Assembly: GCA_044342075.1 (NCBI GenBank)
Contig: JBIIQM010000005.1
Span: 1-59,500 of the forward strand
Origin: Pirellulales bacterium
GTDB taxonomy: Bacteria; Planctomycetota; Planctomycetia; Pirellulales; UBA1268
Direction: 5' to 3'
DNA: 59,500 nt
Below the pieces are notes generated by a model. It saw nothing but the letters and a program-made list of their open reading frames with translations. It was not told the DNA's origin and did not search any database. Of the stretch, positions 19,241 through 31,788 are shown piece by piece. How positions within the stretch are numbered: position 1 is the stretch's first letter; every line of letters starts with the position of its first letter. The translations under genes were made by a program, and so were the position numbers.

Positions 19241-20083
19241 CTCGCCTGCCGGCTCGAGGCCACGGCGGCGAAGGTGGGCAACGTGCATCCAGCCGCCGCC
19301 TTCGCCGACCTCTCGCACGAGGAACTCGTCGCGGCAGGCGAGGCGATCGCGGCTCCGCTCGACCTCGCGGCCACCCGGCCGCTCGGCCGCACGATCCTCG
19401 ACGCCGTCACGGCGTCGCGCCGCGTGACGCGGTCGAACGCGAATCTCGGCATCGTGCTCGCGATCGCGCCGCTCGCCGCCGTGCCCGATGGTGCCACACT
19501 CTCCCCCGCCGCTGCGGCCGCCGTCCTCGCCGCCACCACGCCCGACGATGCCCGCGACGTCTACGCGGCCATCGCGCTGGCCAATCCCGGCGGCATGGGC
19601 CGGCGCGACGAGTGGGACATCGCCGGCCCCGCGCCGCAAAGGCTGCTCGACGCGATGCGCGCCGCGGCCGACCGCGACCAGATCGCGCGGCTCTGGGCGC
19701 AGGGCTACGAACCCCTTTTCGCCGGCCCCGTGGCCGACATCGCCGCCGAGATCGAACGCGGCCTTTCACTCGGCGCGGCGATCGAGCGCAGCCACCTTAT
19801 GCAGCTCGCCCGCGACCCCGACACGCTGATCGCACGGAAGCACGGCATTGCCGCTGCCAACGACATCTCGGCCCGCGCGGCAGCCGTCCTCGCCGCCGGT
19901 GCCGACTGGCCCGCGGGAGCGGCCGACCTCGACCGATTCCTGCGGGCGCAAAGGATGAACCCAGGCACGACCGCCGACCTCGTCGCGGCGGCGCTGTACA
20001 TTCTCCTCGTCACCGGAAACCTCGGTGGCCTCCTCGGCGACTCGCCCACGATCGACTCCACCCTCCGGCACGACCAACCATGA
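19241..20083 (+). CDS. citG: CitG-like triphosphoribosyl-dephospho-CoA synthase family protein (H4MPT/methanofuran cluster type); true start uncertain
   Basis: ACRLEATAAKVGNVHP, SNANLGIVL, NPGTTADLVAA motifs; the family N-terminal motif lies upstream of the first in-frame GTG (19274). Confidence 0.85.
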   Translation, partial: LACRLEATAAKVGNVHPAAAFADLSHEELVAAGEAIAAPLDLAATRPLGRTILDAVTASRRVTRSNANLGIVLAIAPLAAVPDGATLSPAAAAAVLAATTPDDARDVYAAIALANPGGMGRRDEWDIAGPAPQRLLDAMRAAADRDQIARLWAQGYEPLFAGPVADIAAEIERGLSLGAAIERSHLMQLARDPDTLIARKHGIAAANDISARAAAVLAAGADWPAGAADLDRFLRAQRMNPGTTADLVAAALYILLVTGNLGGLLGDSPTIDSTLRHDQP

Positions 20084-20604
20084 ATGAACACTTCCAGGTG
20101 AGGATGCGCAAGGCGGTGCACGTTTTCTGCGCCGGCCACTTCATCACGCTGACCGACGACCTCTGCGAGGCGGTTCACGGTCACAACTGGACGGTGGGCG
20201 CCGACGTCGAAGGTCCGCCCGACAGCCACGGCATGGTGGTGGACTTCATCAAGCTCCGCGACCTGCTCTCCGCGATCACCGCGCGTCTCGACCACCACAT
20301 GCTCCTGCCCACGAAGAACCGGTTCCTCGCGGTCGAGCACACACCGGCGGCGGCCGGCCGTGCGGCCGAGGTGACGGTGCGGTTTAAGGATCACCACGGG
20401 GATCGCCGCTGGGTCTTCCCCGCCGACGAATGCGTGCTCCTGCCGGTCGAAAACACGACAGCCGAATGGATCGCCCGCTGGATCGGCCACGAACTGCTCG
20501 CGGCAATGGCGGCGGCCGGCAGCCCGGTCACCGGATCCTTGCGGATCGAAGTCGACGAATGCCTCGGCCAATCAGCCGTCTGGGAGCGTCGCCCTGTAGG
20601 GTAG
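20080..20604 (+). CDS. queD: 6-pyruvoyl-tetrahydropterin synthase family (QueD/COG0720), CExxHGH type
   Basis: FCAGHF, CEAVHGHNW, DF..L, LDH, NTTAEWIA; ATGA overlap with citG stop. Confidence 0.88.
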   Translation: MNEHFQVRMRKAVHVFCAGHFITLTDDLCEAVHGHNWTVGADVEGPPDSHGMVVDFIKLRDLLSAITARLDHHMLLPTKNRFLAVEHTPAAAGRAAEVTVRFKDHHGDRRWVFPADECVLLPVENTTAEWIARWIGHELLAAMAAAGSPVTGSLRIEVDECLGQSAVWERRPVG

Positions 20605-20690: not shown

Positions 20691-21362
20691 TCAGGCCTCG
20701 GCGACGACGAGCTTCCCGGCCGCTTCGATCGCCAGCGACAAGACGCGCTTGCTCACGCGCACCCGCATCAGCCCCGCGCCGTCGGGATTCCGCTCCACCT
20801 CGCCGACGGCGCCGAGCACGAGGCCGGAGTCGGTGAGGTAGCGCAGAAAACCGGCCGACTGGTCGAGCACGCGGGTGAGCCGGAATGCCGTTCCGGCTTC
20901 GCATTCGGCGAGCGAACGGGCGGGCTCCTCCTTGGGCGGCTGGAGCGATTCGCCCTCGCCGCGCGGGATCGGATCGCCGTGGGGATCGACGTCGGGATGA
21001 CCGAGGAAGGCGTCGATCCGGTCCACGAGCAGGTCGCTCACGGCATGCTCCATGTGCTCCGCCTCGTCGTGCACCTCATCCCAGCTCATGTCGAGCGTGC
21101 GCAGGAGAAAGAGCTCGATGAGACGGTGGCGGCGGATCATGCGCAGTGCCAAAACGCGGCCGGCCCGCGTGAGCGCCACGCCCTCGTAGGGGCGGTGGGT
21201 CGCGAGCCGGGCGGCATCGAGCGTCTTGAGCATGCTCGTGACGGTGCCGGGAGAGACGTCGAGCGCCGCCGCCAATTGCCCGGTGGTGGCGGCGCGGCCT
21301 TCTTGCGACGACACGATCTGGTAGATCGTCTTCACATAATTTTCGACGGTCAGGCTGGGCAC
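20691..21362 (-). CDS. mntR: DtxR/MntR metal-dependent repressor with FeoA-like C-terminal domain
   Basis: TVENYVKTIY, RRHRLIELFL, EVHDEAEHMEH, DPHGDPIP. Confidence 0.93.
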   Translation of the reverse strand: MPSLTVENYVKTIYQIVSSQEGRAATTGQLAAALDVSPGTVTSMLKTLDAARLATHRPYEGVALTRAGRVLALRMIRRHRLIELFLLRTLDMSWDEVHDEAEHMEHAVSDLLVDRIDAFLGHPDVDPHGDPIPRGEGESLQPPKEEPARSLAECEAGTAFRLTRVLDQSAGFLRYLTDSGLVLGAVGEVERNPDGAGLMRVRVSKRVLSLAIEAAGKLVVAEA

Positions 21363-21472: not shown

Positions 21473-22468
21473 ATGAATCTCAATCAATCAGCGCTCGGAA
21501 TCGCCGAGCGGACGATCGCCGACGCCGCCCGCTTGGGGCTAGTCGTCCACACGACCGGCGGGGCGCGCGTCATCGACTGCGGCGTGAAGGCCGCGGGCGG
21601 CTCCGAGGCAGGCCTGGCGGTCGCGCGGGCGGCGATGGCGGGGCTCGGTCGCGTGTGGGTGGAGGAGCCCGGCGCCCACGGCGAGGGTTATGCCGCAGCC
21701 TGGCCGGGATGCGAGTGGCCGCTCGTCGCCGTCGAGAGCGACGAACCACTCGCCGCCTGCCTTGCCTCGCAGTACGCCGGCTGGAAGGTGTCGGCCGGGA
21801 AGTATTTCGCGATGGCGAGCGGCCCGATCCGCGCCGCCATCGGCCGCGAGGATCTGTTCGACGACATCGGCATGCGCGAACGGGCGAATGTCGCCGTCGG
21901 GCTGCTCGAGGCCTCGAAGCTCCCGCCGGAAGACATCTGCCGGCAGCTCGCCGCCGACGCCGGCATCGATCCCGCGGCGCTGGTGCTGCTCGTGGCCCGC
22001 ACGGCGAGCCCTGCGGGAACGCTGCAGGTGATCGCGCGATCGCTCGAGACGGCGCTCCACAAGCTGCACGATCTCCACTTCGACCTGCGGCGGATCCGCC
22101 GCGGCAGCGGCCGCGCGCCGCTCGCCCCGGTGCCCGGCGACGATCTCACCGCGATCGGCCGCACGAACGACGCGATCCTCTACGGCGGCCTGGTCACGCT
22201 CGAAGTGACCGGCGACGACGAGAGCCTCCGCGCGATCGGCCCGCGGATGGTGAGCCGGGCCTCCGCCGACTACGGCGCCCCCTTCTGCGAGCTCTTCGCG
22301 CGGGCCGGCCACGATTTCTACGCGCTCGATCCGGCGCTCTTCGCGCCCGCTTTGGTCGAGATCGTCAATCTCGACACCGGCGCGCGGCACCGCTTCGGCG
22401 GCCTCGCGCCCGAGATCGTGCGGGCGTCTTTCGCGGCCCCTGCCGGATCCGCCGCCACGGGAGCCTGA
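21473..22468 (+). CDS. mch: Methenyl-H4MPT cyclohydrolase
   Basis: IDCGV, LASQYAGW, MASGPIRA, VQ/LQVIARSLETALHK, GRTNDAILYGG, SADYGAPF, DFYALDPALFAPA. Confidence 0.96.
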   Translation: MNLNQSALGIAERTIADAARLGLVVHTTGGARVIDCGVKAAGGSEAGLAVARAAMAGLGRVWVEEPGAHGEGYAAAWPGCEWPLVAVESDEPLAACLASQYAGWKVSAGKYFAMASGPIRAAIGREDLFDDIGMRERANVAVGLLEASKLPPEDICRQLAADAGIDPAALVLLVARTASPAGTLQVIARSLETALHKLHDLHFDLRRIRRGSGRAPLAPVPGDDLTAIGRTNDAILYGGLVTLEVTGDDESLRAIGPRMVSRASADYGAPFCELFARAGHDFYALDPALFAPALVEIVNLDTGARHRFGGLAPEIVRASFAAPAGSAATGA

Positions 22469-22469
22469 C

Positions 22470-23381
22470 GTGCTGCGGATGGCGCTCCTCGGCGAGCCGA
22501 CGGGCTGGCATCTCGGCCGGCTCGCGGGCGCCATGCGTGGTCGCGGCCACGAGGCTTCCGTGGTGCGTTGGAACGAACTCGCGGCGGAAGTCGGCGGGAG
22601 CGACGCCTCCGCCGGCGAACGCTTGTGGCCCGAGGCCGTCAGCCGGGCCGATTGCGTCATCGTGCGCGGCATGCCAACCGGTGCACTGGAGGACGTGATC
22701 TTCCGGATGGACGTGCTGGGCCGGCTCGCGCGGCACGGCACGCGCATCGTGAATAGCCCGCGGGCGCTCGAGGTGGCGATCGACAAATATCTCTCGCTCG
22801 CCCGGATGCAGGATGCAGGGATCGCCGTGCCCCGGACGATCGTCGCCCAGGATGCCGCGGGCATCGAGCGGGCCTGGCACGCCCTCGGGCAAGACGCGGT
22901 CGTGAAACCGCTCTTCGGATCGCGGGGCCGAGGGATCGAGCGACTGTCCACCCACGCGGATCTGGACCCCTACCTCGATGCCGCCCGGCTTCGCGCGGCC
23001 AATCCGGCGGCGAATGGACCGCCGGCGGCCTGCTATCTCCAGGAGTTCGTCCCCCACCAGGGCTGGGACGTCCGCATCTTCTTGATTGGCGACCAGGCCC
23101 TGGCGATGCGGCGGGTCTCCAACGACGACTGGCGGCTCAACGTCAGCCGGGGCGCGAGGGCGGAACCATGGACGCCGCCGGACGACTGGGTCGACCTCGC
23201 CCGGCGGGCGGCCGACGCGGTCGGGGTCGAGATCGCCGGGGTGGATCTCCTGCCCGCCGCCGACGGACGGGTCGTGGTCTTGGAAGTGAATGCCGTGCCG
23301 GGATGGCGGGGGCTTGAAGGAGCGGTCGGCCGGGATGTCACCGCCCTCGTCGTCGACTACCTCGAGCGGATCGCGACCTGA
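22470..23381 (+). CDS. RimK-family ATP-grasp alpha-L-glutamate ligase (Orf5/MptN-like, H4MPT glutamylation)
   Basis: DKY, VVKPLFGSRGRG, YLQEFV, DVRIF, WRLNVSRGA, GVDLL, LEVNAVPGW; follows mch by 1 nt. Confidence 0.9.
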   Translation: MLRMALLGEPTGWHLGRLAGAMRGRGHEASVVRWNELAAEVGGSDASAGERLWPEAVSRADCVIVRGMPTGALEDVIFRMDVLGRLARHGTRIVNSPRALEVAIDKYLSLARMQDAGIAVPRTIVAQDAAGIERAWHALGQDAVVKPLFGSRGRGIERLSTHADLDPYLDAARLRAANPAANGPPAACYLQEFVPHQGWDVRIFLIGDQALAMRRVSNDDWRLNVSRGARAEPWTPPDDWVDLARRAADAVGVEIAGVDLLPAADGRVVVLEVNAVPGWRGLEGAVGRDVTALVVDYLERIAT

Positions 23382-28976: not shown

Positions 28977-29867
28977 CTAGAGCCGCTCGCCGATGGCGAG
29001 CAATTCTTCGGCGTCGAGCACGGCGTCGTTCGATTCGAAGAGCCTGGCGATCGCCGCCCGGTGAATCTTCATCTTCGTGCCGCCCACACCGAGGGCGCCG
29101 TAGACGACGGCCGCGCCATCGGCCCGGGCCTTGTCGGCCGCCACGATCCCCTCGATGCCGGCCGGGGGCACGGCGTTCAAATCGATGAGCACCCGCGCCT
29201 TGAGGGCGGATGCCCGACCGGCGGCGTCGAGCAGCGTCGTGCCGGCGGCGCCGGCCGCCACGATGAGGTCGGCCTCCTGGATCGCGGTTCGAAGGTCACC
29301 GACGGCGGCCGCGGAGTCGGCGCTCGCCACGGCTTCGATCCGCGCTCCGGGCACCTGGCCTGCGATCCGATCGCAGACCTCCCGCGCCCGCTCGATCGAT
29401 CGCGAGGCGACGCTCACGGCGACTCCCTTCCGAGCCAGCAGCCTTGCCACCCGTTGCCCCACGGGGCCGGTGCCCCCGAGCACCACCGCGCGGTGCCGCG
29501 CGGCCGTCTCTGGATCGGCGATGGGCAGGTGCCGCGCGGCCGCGACAACGGCCGCGCTCGCGGTGGTATTGGCACCATTCGGGTCGAGCATCGCGCCCAC
29601 CCGCACCGGGCCAAAAAAAGTCTTTCGCACGCGCTCAAACACCGCCTCGGCCGCGCCGACGTCGGAGCCGCCGACGAAGATCGCGGTCGACGCGAGATCG
29701 GCACCGCCGCGGGTGAACATCGCGCCATGCACGAGCGGCACGACGTTGGCGGGCGTCACTCCGCCGTGCCGTAAGAGCACGTCGGCCCCCGCATCGACAG
29801 CCACGACCGCATCGAACGTGCTCGGCTGTGCATCGCAATCGAGCTGAATCAAGATCCGCTTGGGCAA
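28977..29867 (-). CDS. mtd: NAD(P)-dependent methylene-H4MPT dehydrogenase (MtdB/MtdC family)
   Basis: PSTFDAVVAVDAG, VHGAMFTRG, DPNGANTTA, GGTGPVG, DLNAVPPAGIEG, GALGVGGTKMKIH; TTG start. Confidence 0.93.
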   Translation of the reverse strand: MPKRILIQLDCDAQPSTFDAVVAVDAGADVLLRHGGVTPANVVPLVHGAMFTRGGADLASTAIFVGGSDVGAAEAVFERVRKTFFGPVRVGAMLDPNGANTTASAAVVAAARHLPIADPETAARHRAVVLGGTGPVGQRVARLLARKGVAVSVASRSIERAREVCDRIAGQVPGARIEAVASADSAAAVGDLRTAIQEADLIVAAGAAGTTLLDAAGRASALKARVLIDLNAVPPAGIEGIVAADKARADGAAVVYGALGVGGTKMKIHRAAIARLFESNDAVLDAEELLAIGERL

Positions 29868-29927
29868 GGGAAGAATCTCCTGCTCGAGTCCGCGAGCGAT
29901 GAATGCTGCACGAGAAAATCATCCGCG

Positions 29928-29959
29928 GGAATGAGGGGCGGCAGGCCGCCCCTCATTCC
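29928..29959. terminator. Perfect 15-bp hairpin between fae and mtd
   Basis: GGAATGAGGGGCGGC-AG-GCCGCCCCTCATTCC; no clear U tract on either strand. Confidence 0.6.
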
Positions 29960-30019
29960 ACAGCGGACGTTCGTCAGGCCAAGGCGGCTGCGGCCATGAA
30001 TAGCCCTGCCGCCTCAGAA

Positions 30020-30517
30020 CTAGAAACCCTTGAAGGGGTGCGCGGCCTTGTCCTTGCCGGCGATCATCTCGTCGACGGAGGGCTTGCCCTTCATCGCGTT
30101 CGAGATGGCGTCCATCGTGGCCTTGTAGTTGTAGTCGTAGATCTTCTTGTCGTCGGCGGCGAGCCAGTGGATGAACACGCCGCAGACGATGACGAGGTTC
30201 TCGGCGTCGCTCTTCGGGATCACGCCGGCGGCCACGCTGTCGGCCACGGCCTTGGCGACGGCGGCCTGCGCGGGGCCGAACATCTGCACCGCCTGCTTGG
30301 CGCCCTTGATCGTCACCTTGGTGATCATCACGGTGGCGGGCTTCACGGCGAGATTCGGCGTGAGCACGGCGAGGAGGTTCGAGTGGCCTTCGCTCTGGCG
30401 GGCCAGCGCGTTGGCAAACGCAACGCCCACGGGGCCGTCCTTGCTGCCGATCAAGAGATCGATATGGGCGATTTCGTTTCCGTCGCCGGCCAGTGCCTCG
30501 CCAATGAACATCGACAT
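30020..30517 (-). CDS. fae: Formaldehyde-activating enzyme
   Basis: GEALAGDGNEIAHIDLLIG, KPATV, QMFGPAQAAVA, VFIHW, YNYKAT. Confidence 0.97.
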   Translation of the reverse strand: MSMFIGEALAGDGNEIAHIDLLIGSKDGPVGVAFANALARQSEGHSNLLAVLTPNLAVKPATVMITKVTIKGAKQAVQMFGPAQAAVAKAVADSVAAGVIPKSDAENLVIVCGVFIHWLAADDKKIYDYNYKATMDAISNAMKGKPSVDEMIAGKDKAAHPFKGF

Positions 30518-30603
30518 ATTCCCTGTCTCCTCAAAAAAAGTGTCTCACCATAAAGGCCCTCGTGCGACGCACGGAGGCGGGCGACAGGATACCATTTGCC
30601 CCC

Positions 30604-31788
30604 ATGCCAGCAAGCAATCGCGATGCCTCCGCCGCGCCGGCCGTCGTGATCCTCGGGGCAAGCGCGCGTGCGGCCGCGGCCTCGGCGGCGCGGGCGGGCT
30701 GGACCGTGCATGCCGCCGACCTCTTCTGCGATGCGGATCTCGCGATCGTGGCCGGGTCTTGCCGGCGCGTGACCGACTATCCGGGGGGCCTGCTCACCGC
30801 TGCCGCCGGGTTTCCCATGGCGGCATGGTGTTATACGGGCGCGGTCGAGAACCATCCCGATCTCATCGATCAGATCACGGCGACGAGGCCGCTGGCCGGC
30901 AATCCGGCCGCCGTCGTGCGGCGCGTCCGCGACCCCGCGATCCTTGCGGCGGCGCTCGCCGACGCTGGGCTACGATTTCCTGAGACGTTCCCCACGGCCG
31001 TCGGAGTGCCCACCGACGGCTCATTCGTCTCGAAGCCGCGATCGAGCGCCGGTGGCCACGGCATCGTCCGCTGGACTGAAGCCGCCGCGGGCGGCGATCG
31101 CGGTTTGGCAACGCACCTCTGGCAGCGCTGGGTCGACGGCCTCCCGATGGCGGCCGCGTATTGCCTCGGGGAACGCGGCGCCATGCTCCTGGGTGCGAGC
31201 CGACAGTTGCTCGGCGCGGCATGGTGCCATGCCGCGCCCCATGCCTACTGCGGGTCGGTCGGTATGCCGCTCGAATGGCTGCACGACCGGGTTCGAAACG
31301 ACCTCGAGCGGCTCGGCTGCCTGCTCGCCGAAACGTTCGGCCTGGTCGGTGCGGTGGGCGTCGACTTCATCCTCGGCGCCGACGATTCGATCACCGTCAT
31401 CGAGGTGAACCCGAGGCCCACCGCCTCGATGGAGCTCGTGGAGCGGGCGACCGGCGAATCGATCGCAGGAGCGCACTTCGCTGCCTGTGGATTCGCGCCG
31501 CCGGCGCCGCCGGCGGCCGGCGCGTCGCCCGGCATCTGGTCGAAGGCGATCCTCTTCGCCGTTCGGGATCTCGCGATCGACGAACCGCTGCTCGACCGCC
31601 TGCAACGGCTCGCCCACTCATGGACGCACGACGACGGCTGGCCCGCCCTCGCCGACATCCCGCAGCCGGGGCAGACGCTCGCGCGAGGACGGCCGGTCAT
31701 CACGATCTTCGCGCGGGGAACGTCGCCGGAGGATTCCTACGAGCGGCTCGTCGGGCGCACGAAGAGCCTCGGCGACTGCCTCATGTAG
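30604..31788 (+). CDS. ATP-grasp carboligase of H4MPT/methanofuran gene clusters (COG2232-like)
   Basis: ILGASARAAA, DLFCDAD, KPRSSAGG, WQRWVDG, GVDFI, IEVNPRPTASME; divergent from fae. Confidence 0.82.
   Translation: MPASNRDASAAPAVVILGASARAAAASAARAGWTVHAADLFCDADLAIVAGSCRRVTDYPGGLLTAAAGFPMAAWCYTGAVENHPDLIDQITATRPLAGNPAAVVRRVRDPAILAAALADAGLRFPETFPTAVGVPTDGSFVSKPRSSAGGHGIVRWTEAAAGGDRGLATHLWQRWVDGLPMAAAYCLGERGAMLLGASRQLLGAAWCHAAPHAYCGSVGMPLEWLHDRVRNDLERLGCLLAETFGLVGAVGVDFILGADDSITVIEVNPRPTASMELVERATGESIAGAHFAACGFAPPAPPAAGASPGIWSKAILFAVRDLAIDEPLLDRLQRLAHSWTHDDGWPALADIPQPGQTLARGRPVITIFARGTSPEDSYERLVGRTKSLGDCLM

What the first reader, a model, noticed from the sequence alone, without database searches (positions are those of the whole stretch)
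20080..20604. CExxHGH (PTPS-I/III type) enzyme inside the H4MPT cluster: candidate pterin supply route
Seen: active-site motif CEAVHGH, translationally coupled to the citG-like gene and 870 bp from mch. Established: COG0720 members with CxxxHGH act in queuosine synthesis, those with ExxHGH make 6-hydroxymethyl-dihydropterin and bypass FolB, and CExxHGH enzymes can do both. Inference: this enzyme may feed the pterin head of methanopterin (and folate) in this lineage.
Basis: partly seen in the sequence, partly recalled or inferred. Interest (0 to 1): 0.55.

Follow-up and report, generated by a model that had tools for sequence, protein, structure and literature searches.

The report
Methanopterin-linked pterin synthase (PTPS-III-like)
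This planctomycete gene encodes a Plasmodium-type pterin enzyme beside methanopterin genes that most likely makes the pterin building block for methanopterin and folate in a genome lacking the usual enzyme FolB; a well-supported new example of a known trick, not a new mechanism.

Summary
Window 20080-20604(+) is a real 174-aa COG0720/PTPS gene with CEAVHGH. Its ATG overlaps the stop of a CitG-like gene (ATGA), and it lies 868 nt upstream of mch, with a divergent DtxR-type regulator between.

It is not a short QueD-like PTPS-I/III. It is a long PTPS whose closest solved relatives by far are the Plasmodium enzymes, which make 6-hydroxymethyl-dihydropterin (6-HMDP) through the equivalent Glu.

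- **Conservation:** Glu30 is invariant in the family. Cys29 is not, and one H4MPT cluster carries an RE version.
- **This genome (93% complete):** it has FolE, FolK, FolP, an mptG/MptH-like/pabBA island, TGT, a partial QueC and a separate CxxxHGH QueD-type paralog. No FolB or MptD was found, so this is its only Glu-bearing COG0720 protein.
- **151 Planctomycetota genomes:** the CE-type long PTPS occurs in 12 of 13 mch-carrying genomes, half of which also have FolB. A Cys-less sister group occurs in 28 mch-less genomes, 27 without FolB.
- **Relatives' neighbours:** FolK-FolP, MptH-like DHPS, pabB or an AfpA-like flavoprotein.

Best reading (about 0.65): a PTPS-III-type 6-HMDP synthase dedicated to H4MPT, which here also replaces FolB. 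No enzyme assay exists. The scan noted the same gene pair earlier in other genomes. I rate it a new member of a known kind.

The parts
20080..20604 (+). Long (174 aa) PTPS-III-like COG0720 enzyme; proposed 6-hydroxymethyl-7,8-dihydropterin synthase
   Evidence: PF01242 E 7.6e-20. Below the QueD equivalog cut-off (66.8 vs 89.25 bits). Best PDB sequence hits are Plasmodium PTPS 1y13/2a0s. AF2 pLDDT 97 and Foldseek TM 0.83-0.89 to the same entries.
20164..20184 (+). Active-site motif C29-E30-A-V-H33-G-H35
   Evidence: Read directly. E30, H33 and H35 are invariant and C29 variable in 37 family representatives. E30 aligns with the catalytic Glu of Plasmodium PTPS (PMC2229834).
19274..20083 (+). CitG-like gene (triphosphoribosyl-transferase family), upstream partner
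   Evidence: PF01874 E 2e-47. Directly upstream of the PTPS in 8 of 11 mch-carrying planctomycete relatives and in Gemmatimonadota loci.
20080..20083 (+). ATGA start/stop overlap between the CitG-like gene and the PTPS gene
   Evidence: Sequence read. Coupling is inferred from the overlap, not shown.
20691..21362 (-). DtxR/MntR-family metalloregulator, divergent from mch
   Evidence: PF02742, PF01325 and FeoA domains. The same CitG-PTPS-DtxR(-)-mch order occurs in L131, and PTPS-DtxR(-)-mch in L183, with about 80% identity.
21473..22468 (+). mch, methenyl-H4MPT cyclohydrolase
   Evidence: PF02289 E 6e-106; TIGR03120 336 bits, above its cut-off of 228.8.
22470..23381 (+). RimK-type ATP-grasp glutamate ligase (MptN/MyfB-like)
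   Evidence: PF08443. The NF040720 MptN model scores 194 bits, below its cut-off of 350. Its position after mch matches orf5/MyfB of methylotrophs (PMC3615186, PMC8141765).
28977..31788 (.). Second C1 island: mtdB-like (28977-29867, -), fae (30020-30517, -), ATP-grasp_3 ligase (30562-31788, +)
   Evidence: PF09176, PF08714 and PF02655.

Best explanation
The gene encodes a zinc-dependent T-fold lyase of the long, Plasmodium-type PTPS-III kind. It takes 7,8-dihydroneopterin triphosphate made by FolE and, with Glu30 as the catalytic base, cleaves the side chain to give 6-HMDP in one step. FolK then pyrophosphorylates 6-HMDP. The product is condensed either with beta-RFAP, by the MptH-like DHPS next to mptG, to start methanopterin, or with pABA, by FolP, to make folate. 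The gene belongs to the H4MPT module and is co-transcribed with a CitG-like gene that probably acts in a later H4MPT step. In this FolB-less lineage it would also be the only route to the folate pterin. Shown: family, fold, conserved residues, gene content, co-occurrence and neighbourhoods. Inferred: substrate, product and the role of Glu30.
For: 1. Closest solved relatives are P. falciparum and P. vivax PTPS: E 1e-12 by sequence across the insertion as well, and Foldseek TM 0.83-0.89, E 3e-16, against TMq of 0.6 or less for QueD and PTPS-II. PfPTPS makes 6-HMDP, and this is ascribed to Glu38 (PMC2229834), which aligns with E30.
2. E30, H20, H33, H35 and E129 are invariant in 37 representatives, while C29 is replaced by A/S/R/I/V and others.
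3. Own genome: FolB and MptD were not found. FolE, FolK and FolP are present, as is an mptG-like / MptH-like DHPS / pabB / pabA island. The only other COG0720 gene is CAFFHGH, without Glu.
4. Phylum test on 151 genomes. Long Cys-less PTPS occurs in 28 genomes, 27 without FolB. Genomes with neither FolB nor a long PTPS carry a short Glu-bearing PTPS in 20 of 20 sampled. FolB-positive genomes carry Glu in the sampled short copy in 6 of 33. HPPK is in 150 of 151. The Glu rule for FolB bypass therefore holds in this phylum.
5. The CE-type long PTPS is present in 12 of 13 mch-positive genomes.
6. Neighbourhoods of relatives: PTPS-FolK-FolP in a FolB-less, mch-positive Anaerolineales MAG, 44% identical and CE-type. 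mch-RimK-CitG-PTPS-SDR-PCD-MptH-like-pabB in G141, and the same order with MptH-like and pabB downstream in G098. PTPS-AfpA-like-MptH-like in a Thiobacillus MAG. PTPS-pabB or PTPS-pabA in others.
7. An H4MPT cluster with an RE (Cys-less) PTPS after CitG.
Against: No assay or complementation exists for any member of this H4MPT-linked group that I could retrieve.

- Six of the 12 planctomycete carriers, and the Thiobacillus MAG, also have FolB. A simple FolB substitute would be redundant there, so the H4MPT-linked enzyme might use another substrate or give another product.
- Cys29 is conserved in all 12 mch-associated planctomycete sequences but absent from all 20 sampled sequences of the mch-less sister group. 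This is unexplained if only Glu matters.
- One mch-positive genome (G094, 90% complete) has FolB but no PTPS at all.
- FolB absence in the own genome rests on a MAG that is 93% complete.
- From memory only (Kalyuzhnaya et al. 2005, not retrievable here): orf19 mutants of FolB-containing methylotrophs have an H4MPT-type phenotype. That would argue for more than a redundant 6-HMDP supply.
Confidence: 0.65

Rival explanations
1. An H4MPT-specific enzyme with different chemistry. The CE-type long PTPS would act on another pterin substrate (for example a dihydroneopterin mono- or cyclic phosphate) or give another 6-substituted pterin. With the neighbouring SDR, PCD or CitG-like proteins it would then be processed into a methanopterin-specific head group rather than plain 6-HMDP.
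For: The gene tracks mch, not FolB absence: it is kept in 6 FolB-positive planctomycete genomes and a FolB-positive Thiobacillus MAG. Cys29 is conserved in all 12 mch-linked planctomycete copies and absent from the 20 sampled sister-group copies. It is tightly linked to a CitG-like gene. An SDR and a pterin-4a-carbinolamine dehydratase follow the PTPS in G141. Zallot et al. note that archaeal PTPS-III in H4MPT synthesis may use the monophosphate (PMC5041015).
Against: All other active-site positions are identical between the mch-linked group and the FolB-replacing sister group. A Cys-less RE copy sits in the same CitG-PTPS position of an H4MPT cluster. A CE-type copy sits directly before FolK-FolP, where FolB normally sits. 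The own genome has FolK and an MptH-like DHPS, which need 6-HMDP diphosphate, and no other source for it was found.
Confidence: 0.2
2. It is QueD (6-carboxy-tetrahydropterin synthase) for queuosine, as automatic annotation of relatives says, or a bifunctional PTPS-I/III in which the Cys serves queuosine synthesis.
For: The CxxxHGH motif is formally present. TGT and a partial QueC exist in the genome. Sources name relatives '6-carboxytetrahydropterin synthase'. CExxHGH enzymes can serve both pathways (PMC5041015).
Against: The QueD equivalog model scores 66.8 bits against a cut-off of 89.25. A separate CAFFHGH paralog exists on contig C23, and its counterparts in G134 and G148 lie close to FolE2. 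All five other FolB-less mch-carrying genomes have a separate short PTPS. No que genes lie near this gene. The Cys is lost repeatedly in the family while Glu never is.
Confidence: 0.07
3. It is a classical PTPS-II that makes 6-pyruvoyl-tetrahydropterin for a biopterin-type cofactor, together with an SDR (sepiapterin-reductase-like) and PCD.
For: PTPS-SDR-PCD are adjacent in G141. PfPTPS also releases a second, PTP-derived product (PMC2229834).
Against: The PTPS-II signature CxxxxxHGH is absent. The same SDR family sits in this genome beside pabA, MptH-like and mptG, not beside the PTPS. The gene co-occurs with mch in 12 of 13 genomes. PCD-like genes are already known as companions of mptG in methylotrophs (PMC3615186).
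Confidence: 0.03

Closest known systems
Plasmodium falciparum / P. vivax PTPS (PDB 1Y13, 2A0S; PTPS-III)
   Same: Same long architecture of about 165-180 aa, including the extra beta-hairpin insertion. TM 0.83-0.89 with rmsd 2.0-2.1 A. Same His triad, Asp-His dyad, pterin-binding Glu and the catalytic Glu three residues before HGH. The Plasmodium enzymes make 6-HMDP and bypass the missing dihydroneopterin aldolase (PMC2229834).
   Different: Only 21-24% identical. The residue before the Glu is Cys here and Arg in Plasmodium. The gene sits in a methanopterin gene module and is coupled to a CitG-like gene. Its activity has not been measured.
Bacterial PTPS-III / PTPS-I/III of the COG0720 classification (Phillips et al. 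2012, as summarised in PMC5041015)
   Same: ExxHGH, here CExxHGH, in a genome without FolB but with FolK and FolP. The motif-versus-FolB rule holds in this phylum.
   Different: The short bifunctional CExxHGH enzymes are usually the only COG0720 copy. Here the protein is of the long type and a separate QueD-type paralog exists. Its distribution follows mch rather than FolB absence.
orf19-orf20 of the H4MPT/methylofuran 'archaeal-like' gene islands of methylotrophic Proteobacteria
   Same: A PTPS-like gene paired with a CitG-like gene among H4MPT-linked genes. The island order orf19-orf20-afpA-orf21-orf22 is reported for Methylosinus (PMC3615186). A Thiobacillus MAG shows PTPS-AfpA-like-MptH-like. 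That orf19 is PTPS-like and orf20 CitG-like is from my memory of Chistoserdova 2004 and Kalyuzhnaya 2005, which I could not retrieve.
   Different: Planctomycete order and neighbours differ: CitG-PTPS, a DtxR regulator, then mch. No AfpA homologue was found in this genome. I did not obtain a named proteobacterial orf19 sequence, so orthology is inferred from context.
E. coli QueD (PDB 4NTK/4NTM)
   Same: Same superfamily, zinc site and a Cys four residues before HGH.
   Different: About 120 aa without the insertion and TMq about 0.5. It lacks the Glu, makes CPH4 for queuosine, and its equivalog model is not met here.

Membership tests
COG0720 / Pfam PF01242 PTPS superfamily | Significant match to the family profile | tested here: met
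   E 7.6e-20, 71.5 bits against a cut-off of 22.4.
COG0720 / Pfam PF01242 PTPS superfamily | T-fold with the three zinc-binding His, the Asp-His dyad and the pterin-anchoring Glu | tested here: met
   H20, H33, H35, D71-H72 and E129 are conserved in alignment A1. The AF2 model matches only PTPS/QueD structures at E below 0.001. The residue roles come from knowledge of the family and were not measured.
PTPS-III (FolB-bypassing 6-HMDP synthase) | Glu three residues before HGH (ExxHGH) | tested here: met
   CEAVHGH. Glu is invariant in 113 family rows.
PTPS-III (FolB-bypassing 6-HMDP synthase) | Genome lacks FolB (and MptD) but keeps FolE, FolK and FolP | tested here: met
   The genome is 93% complete, so absence is 'not found'.
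PTPS-III (FolB-bypassing 6-HMDP synthase) | Physical clustering with folate or pterin-branch genes | tested here: inconclusive
   Not in this window, where the neighbours are CitG-like and mch. Yes in relatives: PTPS-FolK-FolP (L189), PTPS...MptH-like-pabB (L046, L047), PTPS-FolE (L024).
PTPS-III (FolB-bypassing 6-HMDP synthase) | Forms 6-HMDP from dihydroneopterin triphosphate; complements folB | not testable with these tools
   Needs an enzyme assay or complementation.
QueD / PTPS-I | Reaches the curated QueD equivalog score | tested here: not met
   TIGR03367 scores 66.8 bits against a cut-off of 89.25.
QueD / PTPS-I | CxxxHGH motif | tested here: met
   C29 lies four residues before H33, but the Cys is variable in the family.
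QueD / PTPS-I | The COG0720 copy that serves the queuosine pathway (que-gene or FolE2 linkage, or sole copy) | tested here: not met
   A second paralog (CAFFHGH, contig C23) exists. Its counterparts in G134 and G148 lie close to FolE2.
Short bifunctional PTPS-I/III | CExxHGH in a short (about 120-150 aa) protein that is the only COG0720 copy | tested here: not met
   The motif is met, but the protein is 174 aa with the Plasmodium-type insertion and there are two COG0720 genes. True short CE forms occur in other Planctomycetota.
PTPS-II (biopterin) | CxxxxxHGH motif | tested here: not met
   The sequence reads DDLCEAVHGH, with no Cys six residues before HGH.
H4MPT-linked PTPS-like/CitG-like pair ('orf19/orf20' type) | Adjacent CitG-like gene and co-occurrence with mch | tested here: met
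   ATGA overlap with the CitG-like gene. CitG-like lies upstream in 8 of 11 relatives. 12 of 13 mch-positive Planctomycetota carry it. The same operon occurs in Gemmatimonadota.
H4MPT-linked PTPS-like/CitG-like pair ('orf19/orf20' type) | Loss-of-function gives an H4MPT-deficient, formaldehyde-sensitive phenotype | not testable with these tools
   Genetic test. The published mutant data (Kalyuzhnaya 2005) could not be retrieved here.

The most novel reading that the evidence does not exclude
The mch-linked CE-type long PTPS is not just a FolB substitute. It would be the first committed, methanopterin-specific pterin enzyme of bacteria. Using both Cys29 and Glu30, it would make a pterin other than plain 6-HMDP, or accept a different phosphorylated neopterin. 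The conserved island SDR, the PCD and the CitG-like protein would then process that product. This would explain why FolB-containing H4MPT users keep the gene.
Probability: 0.15. Interest if true: 0.65.

Novelty: new member of a known kind. Interest (0 to 1): 0.35.

Why it matters
The early, pterin-head steps of methanopterin synthesis in Bacteria have never been assigned enzymatically. The archaeal enzymes MptA, MptB, MptD and MptE are mostly missing in bacteria; MptD was not found here. The PTPS-like/CitG-like pair has stayed 'function unknown' in H4MPT gene islands.

This analysis gives that gene a concrete, testable job: dihydroneopterin triphosphate to 6-HMDP. It shows that in FolB-less Planctomycetota the same gene would be essential for folate too. 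It also documents three interchangeable solutions for 6-HMDP supply within one phylum: FolB, a short CE-type PTPS, and a long Glu-type PTPS. Finally, it warns that automatic 'QueD' labels on this group are probably wrong. It does not reveal a new mechanism.

Tried and rejected
- **Papers not held.** Kalyuzhnaya 2005, Phillips 2012, de Crecy-Lagard 2012 and Pribat 2009 could not be retrieved. Statements about orf19/orf20 identity and mutant phenotypes are therefore from memory and marked as such.
- Family alignments A1 and A2 were rejected because no stretch was conserved enough.
- **Pattern scan capped.** It returned mostly short CE-type PTPS from many phyla and no named proteobacterial methylotroph. 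Orthology to proteobacterial orf19 is thus shown only through context (Thiobacillus MAG L235).
- **Few organism names.** The listing of cluster members gave almost none.
- **Redox or metal pair rejected.** I tested whether Cys29 pairs with the second group-specific Cys118. Across 113 sequences the two cysteines are only weakly associated (34/32/13/34), so I dropped the idea.
- **Hidden FolB rejected.** I considered that the 235-aa C-terminal extension of FolK might hide a FolB. It has no Pfam match and shows a P-loop-like motif.
- **Not run.** I claim no CitG-PTPS binding, so no complex prediction was run. No expression data were examined.
Full report
**1. Observation**

Window 20080-20604(+) is an intact 174-codon ORF (P0001). 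It reads ...FCAGHF...DDLCEAVHGHNW...LDHHMLLP...ENTTAEWIA..., so CEAVHGH occupies residues 29-35 (nt 20164-20184).

- It matches Pfam PTPS (PF01242) at E 7.6e-20.
- It stays below the curated QueD equivalog score: TIGR03367 gives 66.8 bits against a cut-off of 89.25.
- Its ATG overlaps the TGA of the upstream CitG-like ORF 19274-20083 (PF01874, E 2e-47) as ATGA.
- mch (21473-22468; PF02289 E 6e-106) starts 868 nt downstream. A DtxR/MntR-family gene on the other strand (20691-21362) fills that gap.
- A RimK-type ligase follows mch.
- A second C1 island (mtdB-like, fae, an ATP-grasp ligase) lies at 28977-31788.

An earlier follow-up note of this scan places the genome among uncultured freshwater Pirellulales, and named homologues are planctomycetal.

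**2. What kind of PTPS it is**

Sequence search of solved structures puts the Plasmodium falciparum and P. vivax PTPS first (E 1e-12 to 1e-10). The alignments run through the 85-115 insertion. QueD entries match only residues 28-75, at E around 1e-5.

An AlphaFold model built on 37 family representatives has pLDDT 97.1. Foldseek again gives the Plasmodium entries (TMq 0.83-0.84, TMt 0.89, rmsd 2.0-2.1 A, E 3e-16). A wide gap separates them from everything else: QueD, PTPS-II and others have TMq of 0.6 or less.

The Plasmodium enzyme converts dihydroneopterin triphosphate mainly into 6-hydroxymethyl-7,8-dihydropterin (6-HMDP). This is ascribed to Glu38, which replaces the usual Cys (PMC2229834). 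That Glu aligns with E30 here.

Among the 150 best representatives of an exhaustive search, plus close homologues, Glu is practically universal. The preceding Cys is replaced in 32 of the 256 sequences that show the motif. In alignment A1, F16, H20, E30, H33, G34, H35, P114, E129 and E160 are invariant and C29 is not.

By architecture and phylogeny it is a long PTPS-III-like protein, not a short QueD-like PTPS-I/III.

**3. The genome around it**

The assembly has 3.28 Mb in 172 contigs and is 93% complete.

| Function | Result |
|---|---|
| COG0720 genes | Two: this one, and a CAFFHGH (QueD-type) copy on contig C23 |
| FolB | Not found |
| MptD | Not found |
| FolE | Present |
| FolE2 | Not found |
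| FolK | Present |
| FolP | Present |
| TGT | Present |
| QueC | Partial, at a contig end |

Contig C63 carries an mptG-like gene. Divergent from it lies a DUF6513/Pterin_bind/DUF4346 protein (an MptH-like dihydropteroate-synthase relative), followed by pabB, pabA and an SDR.

So the cell has both consumers of 6-HMDP diphosphate, FolP and the MptH-like enzyme, and the kinase that makes it. It has no recognisable aldolase. The window gene is its only Glu-bearing COG0720 protein.

**4. Phylogenetic profile in the phylum**

I scanned the same 151 Planctomycetota genomes, each at least 90% complete, four times.

- **HPPK** is in 150, **FolB** in 48 and **mch** in 13.
- **Long PTPS.** The family profile gives full-length matches of at least 130 bits in 40 genomes.
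- **Group 1.** Twelve genomes, including this one, score at least 202 bits. These are 12 of the 13 mch-positive genomes. All 12 sequences are CExxHGH. Six of these genomes have FolB and six do not.
- **Group 2.** Twenty-eight genomes score 130-185 bits. None has mch. All 20 sequences I extracted read A/R/K-ExxHGH, without Cys. Only one of the 28 genomes has FolB.
- **Neither FolB nor long PTPS.** About 70 genomes. The short PTPS carries Glu in 20 of 20 sampled: 19 CE and 1 ME.
- **FolB-positive genomes.** The sampled short PTPS carries Glu in 6 of 33.
- **FolB-less mch carriers.** In four of the five besides this genome (G134, G003, G098, G141) the short paralogs lack Glu; G148's short copy reads CEFFHGH.

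A quick ML tree groups all Cys-less planctomycete sequences (24 rows, SH-aLRT 91). It places the window protein in a 30-row all-CE group (SH-aLRT 84). Family-wide, the Cys has been gained or lost several times: at least 5 changes are forced by well-supported branches.

Related genomes are not independent, so these counts describe a pattern and are not statistics. The pattern has two parts. Glu-type COG0720 proteins replace FolB in this phylum. The CE-type long form follows H4MPT genes whether or not FolB is present.

**5. Neighbourhoods**

- The CitG-like gene lies directly upstream in 8 of 11 mch-positive planctomycete relatives.
- G141 carries mch-RimK-CitG-PTPS-SDR-PCD-MptH-like-pabB on one strand. 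G098 shows the same order, with MptH-like and pabB downstream of the PTPS.
- The closest GTDB relative returned by the pattern scan (L131) repeats the window's CitG-PTPS-DtxR(-)-mch order, and L183 shows PTPS-DtxR(-)-mch.
- Gemmatimonadota MAGs show mch-RimK-CitG-PTPS (L207 and L246; L237 shows CitG-PTPS). L198 in G153 shows it too, but G153 is flagged as unpublished, so nothing here should rest on it alone.
- A metagenomic contig carries fhcA-fhcD-...-mch-EthD-RimK-CitG-PTPS followed by HisA-like, hydantoinase-like and amino-acid-kinase genes. There the PTPS reads RESLHGH, so the Cys is dispensable in the H4MPT context.
- An Anaerolineales MAG (G151) has a CE-type long PTPS, 44% identical to ours, 14 nt upstream of FolK and then FolP, the place FolB usually occupies. 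That genome has no FolB and two mch copies.
- A Thiobacillus MAG (G152; FolB-positive, mch-positive) has PTPS-flavoprotein (AfpA-like)-MptH-like. This recalls the orf19-orf20-afpA island of methylotrophs (PMC3615186).
- Other members sit next to pabB or pabA, or to MfnB.

Almost all conserved neighbours belong to the pterin and arylamine branches that meet at the coupling step. This is what a 6-HMDP supplier would predict.

**6. Interpretation**

The most likely mechanism (about 0.65) is a PTPS-III-type lyase. It would convert FolE-made dihydroneopterin triphosphate directly into 6-HMDP, with Glu30 as the base. FolK and then the MptH-like enzyme (methanopterin) or FolP (folate) would use the product.

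In this lineage it would serve both cofactors. In lineages with FolB it would act as the H4MPT module's own supply. The CitG-like partner probably works in a later H4MPT step, perhaps attaching the phosphoribosyl unit. That last point is my speculation from CitG chemistry and was not tested.

The main rival (about 0.2) is that the mch-linked form does something chemically different. Three facts argue for it: the gene persists beside FolB, Cys29 is conserved within the planctomycete mch-linked group, and an SDR and PCD lie next to it in G141.

Three facts argue against it. The remaining active-site columns are identical in both groups. An RE copy sits in an H4MPT cluster. A CE copy sits before FolK-FolP.

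QueD function (about 0.07) is unlikely because a dedicated paralog exists and the equivalog score is not reached. PTPS-II (about 0.03) fails its motif.

**7. Comparison with what is known, and novelty**

The motif logic (PTPS-I, PTPS-III, PTPS-I/III) and the involvement of PTPS-III in archaeal H4MPT synthesis are published (PMC5041015). The Plasmodium precedent is biochemical (PMC2229834). PTPS-like/CitG-like genes in bacterial H4MPT islands have been listed for years (PMC3615186; Chistoserdova 2004 and Kalyuzhnaya 2005 from memory). First readers of this scan flagged the same pair in other genomes.

What is added here:
- the structural assignment to the Plasmodium-type long form;
- the phylum-wide split into an mch-linked CE group and a FolB-replacing Cys-less group;
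- the gene-content argument that in this genome the enzyme must also carry folate synthesis.

I rate it a new member of a known kind, of moderate-to-low surprise. It yields a clean, testable function for a long-unassigned H4MPT-island gene.

Noticed in passing
window 20691-21362 (-), and L131, L183: A DtxR/MntR-family metalloregulator with a FeoA-like C-terminal domain is wedged between the PTPS gene and mch, divergent from mch. The same order, with about 80% identical regulators, recurs in two other planctomycete MAG contigs. This suggests metal-dependent control of the H4MPT module, and the PTPS is a zinc enzyme. Earlier first-reader notes of this scan flagged the same thing in other genomes.
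   Followed up: partly
window 22470-23381 (+): The RimK-type ligase right after mch scores best against the archaeal MptN model, but far below its cut-off (194 vs 350 bits). Its position matches orf5 of methylotrophs, now MyfB, the methylofuran polyglutamate ligase (PMC8141765). It may therefore act on methylofuran rather than on methanopterin.
   Followed up: partly
own genome contig C63:9150-15840 (L129:4150-10838): A second cofactor island: an mptG-like gene divergent from a 700-aa DUF6513/Pterin_bind/DUF4346 (MptH-like DHPS) gene, then pabB, pabA and an SDR. The SDR is 54% identical to the SDR that directly follows the PTPS in G141 (L047). No AfpA homologue was found in this genome. This SDR is a candidate for the dihydromethanopterin reductase that Planctomycetes are said to lack (PMC5020050).
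   Followed up: partly
own genome contig C121 (L003:1381-2598): The FolK (HPPK) ORF is 405 codons as called from its first GTG. HPPK covers only residues 41-168, followed by about 235 residues with no Pfam match and a P-loop-like VGVPGAGAPE stretch. panC follows. This may be a fusion to an unrecognised kinase-like domain, or the start may be miscalled.
   Followed up: no
Planctomycetota genomes G001-G150: HPPK is nearly universal (150/151) but FolB is found in only 48 of 151 genomes. The rest carry a long Glu-type PTPS, or a short CExxHGH PTPS in those sampled. The phylum thus shows three interchangeable routes to 6-HMDP. Six FolB-positive genomes still have a short CE-type copy.
   Followed up: partly
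L054:2361-2927 and L061:1682-2245: In two metagenomic contigs a LigT-like 2H phosphoesterase gene lies divergently upstream of a long PTPS. A cyclic phosphodiesterase next to a neopterin-cleaving enzyme recalls the archaeal MptA/MptB route through a neopterin cyclic phosphate.
   Followed up: no
G094 (same phylum): This one mch-positive planctomycete genome (90% complete) has FolB but no detectable PTPS-family gene and no QueC. It is the only exception to the mch/long-PTPS co-occurrence.
   Followed up: no
L162 (Candidatus Hadarchaeales archaeon MAG): A CE-type long PTPS (36% identical over residues 16-170) occurs in an archaeal MAG. Its assembly is only 0.9 Mb, and neither mch nor FolB was found in it.
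   Followed up: no
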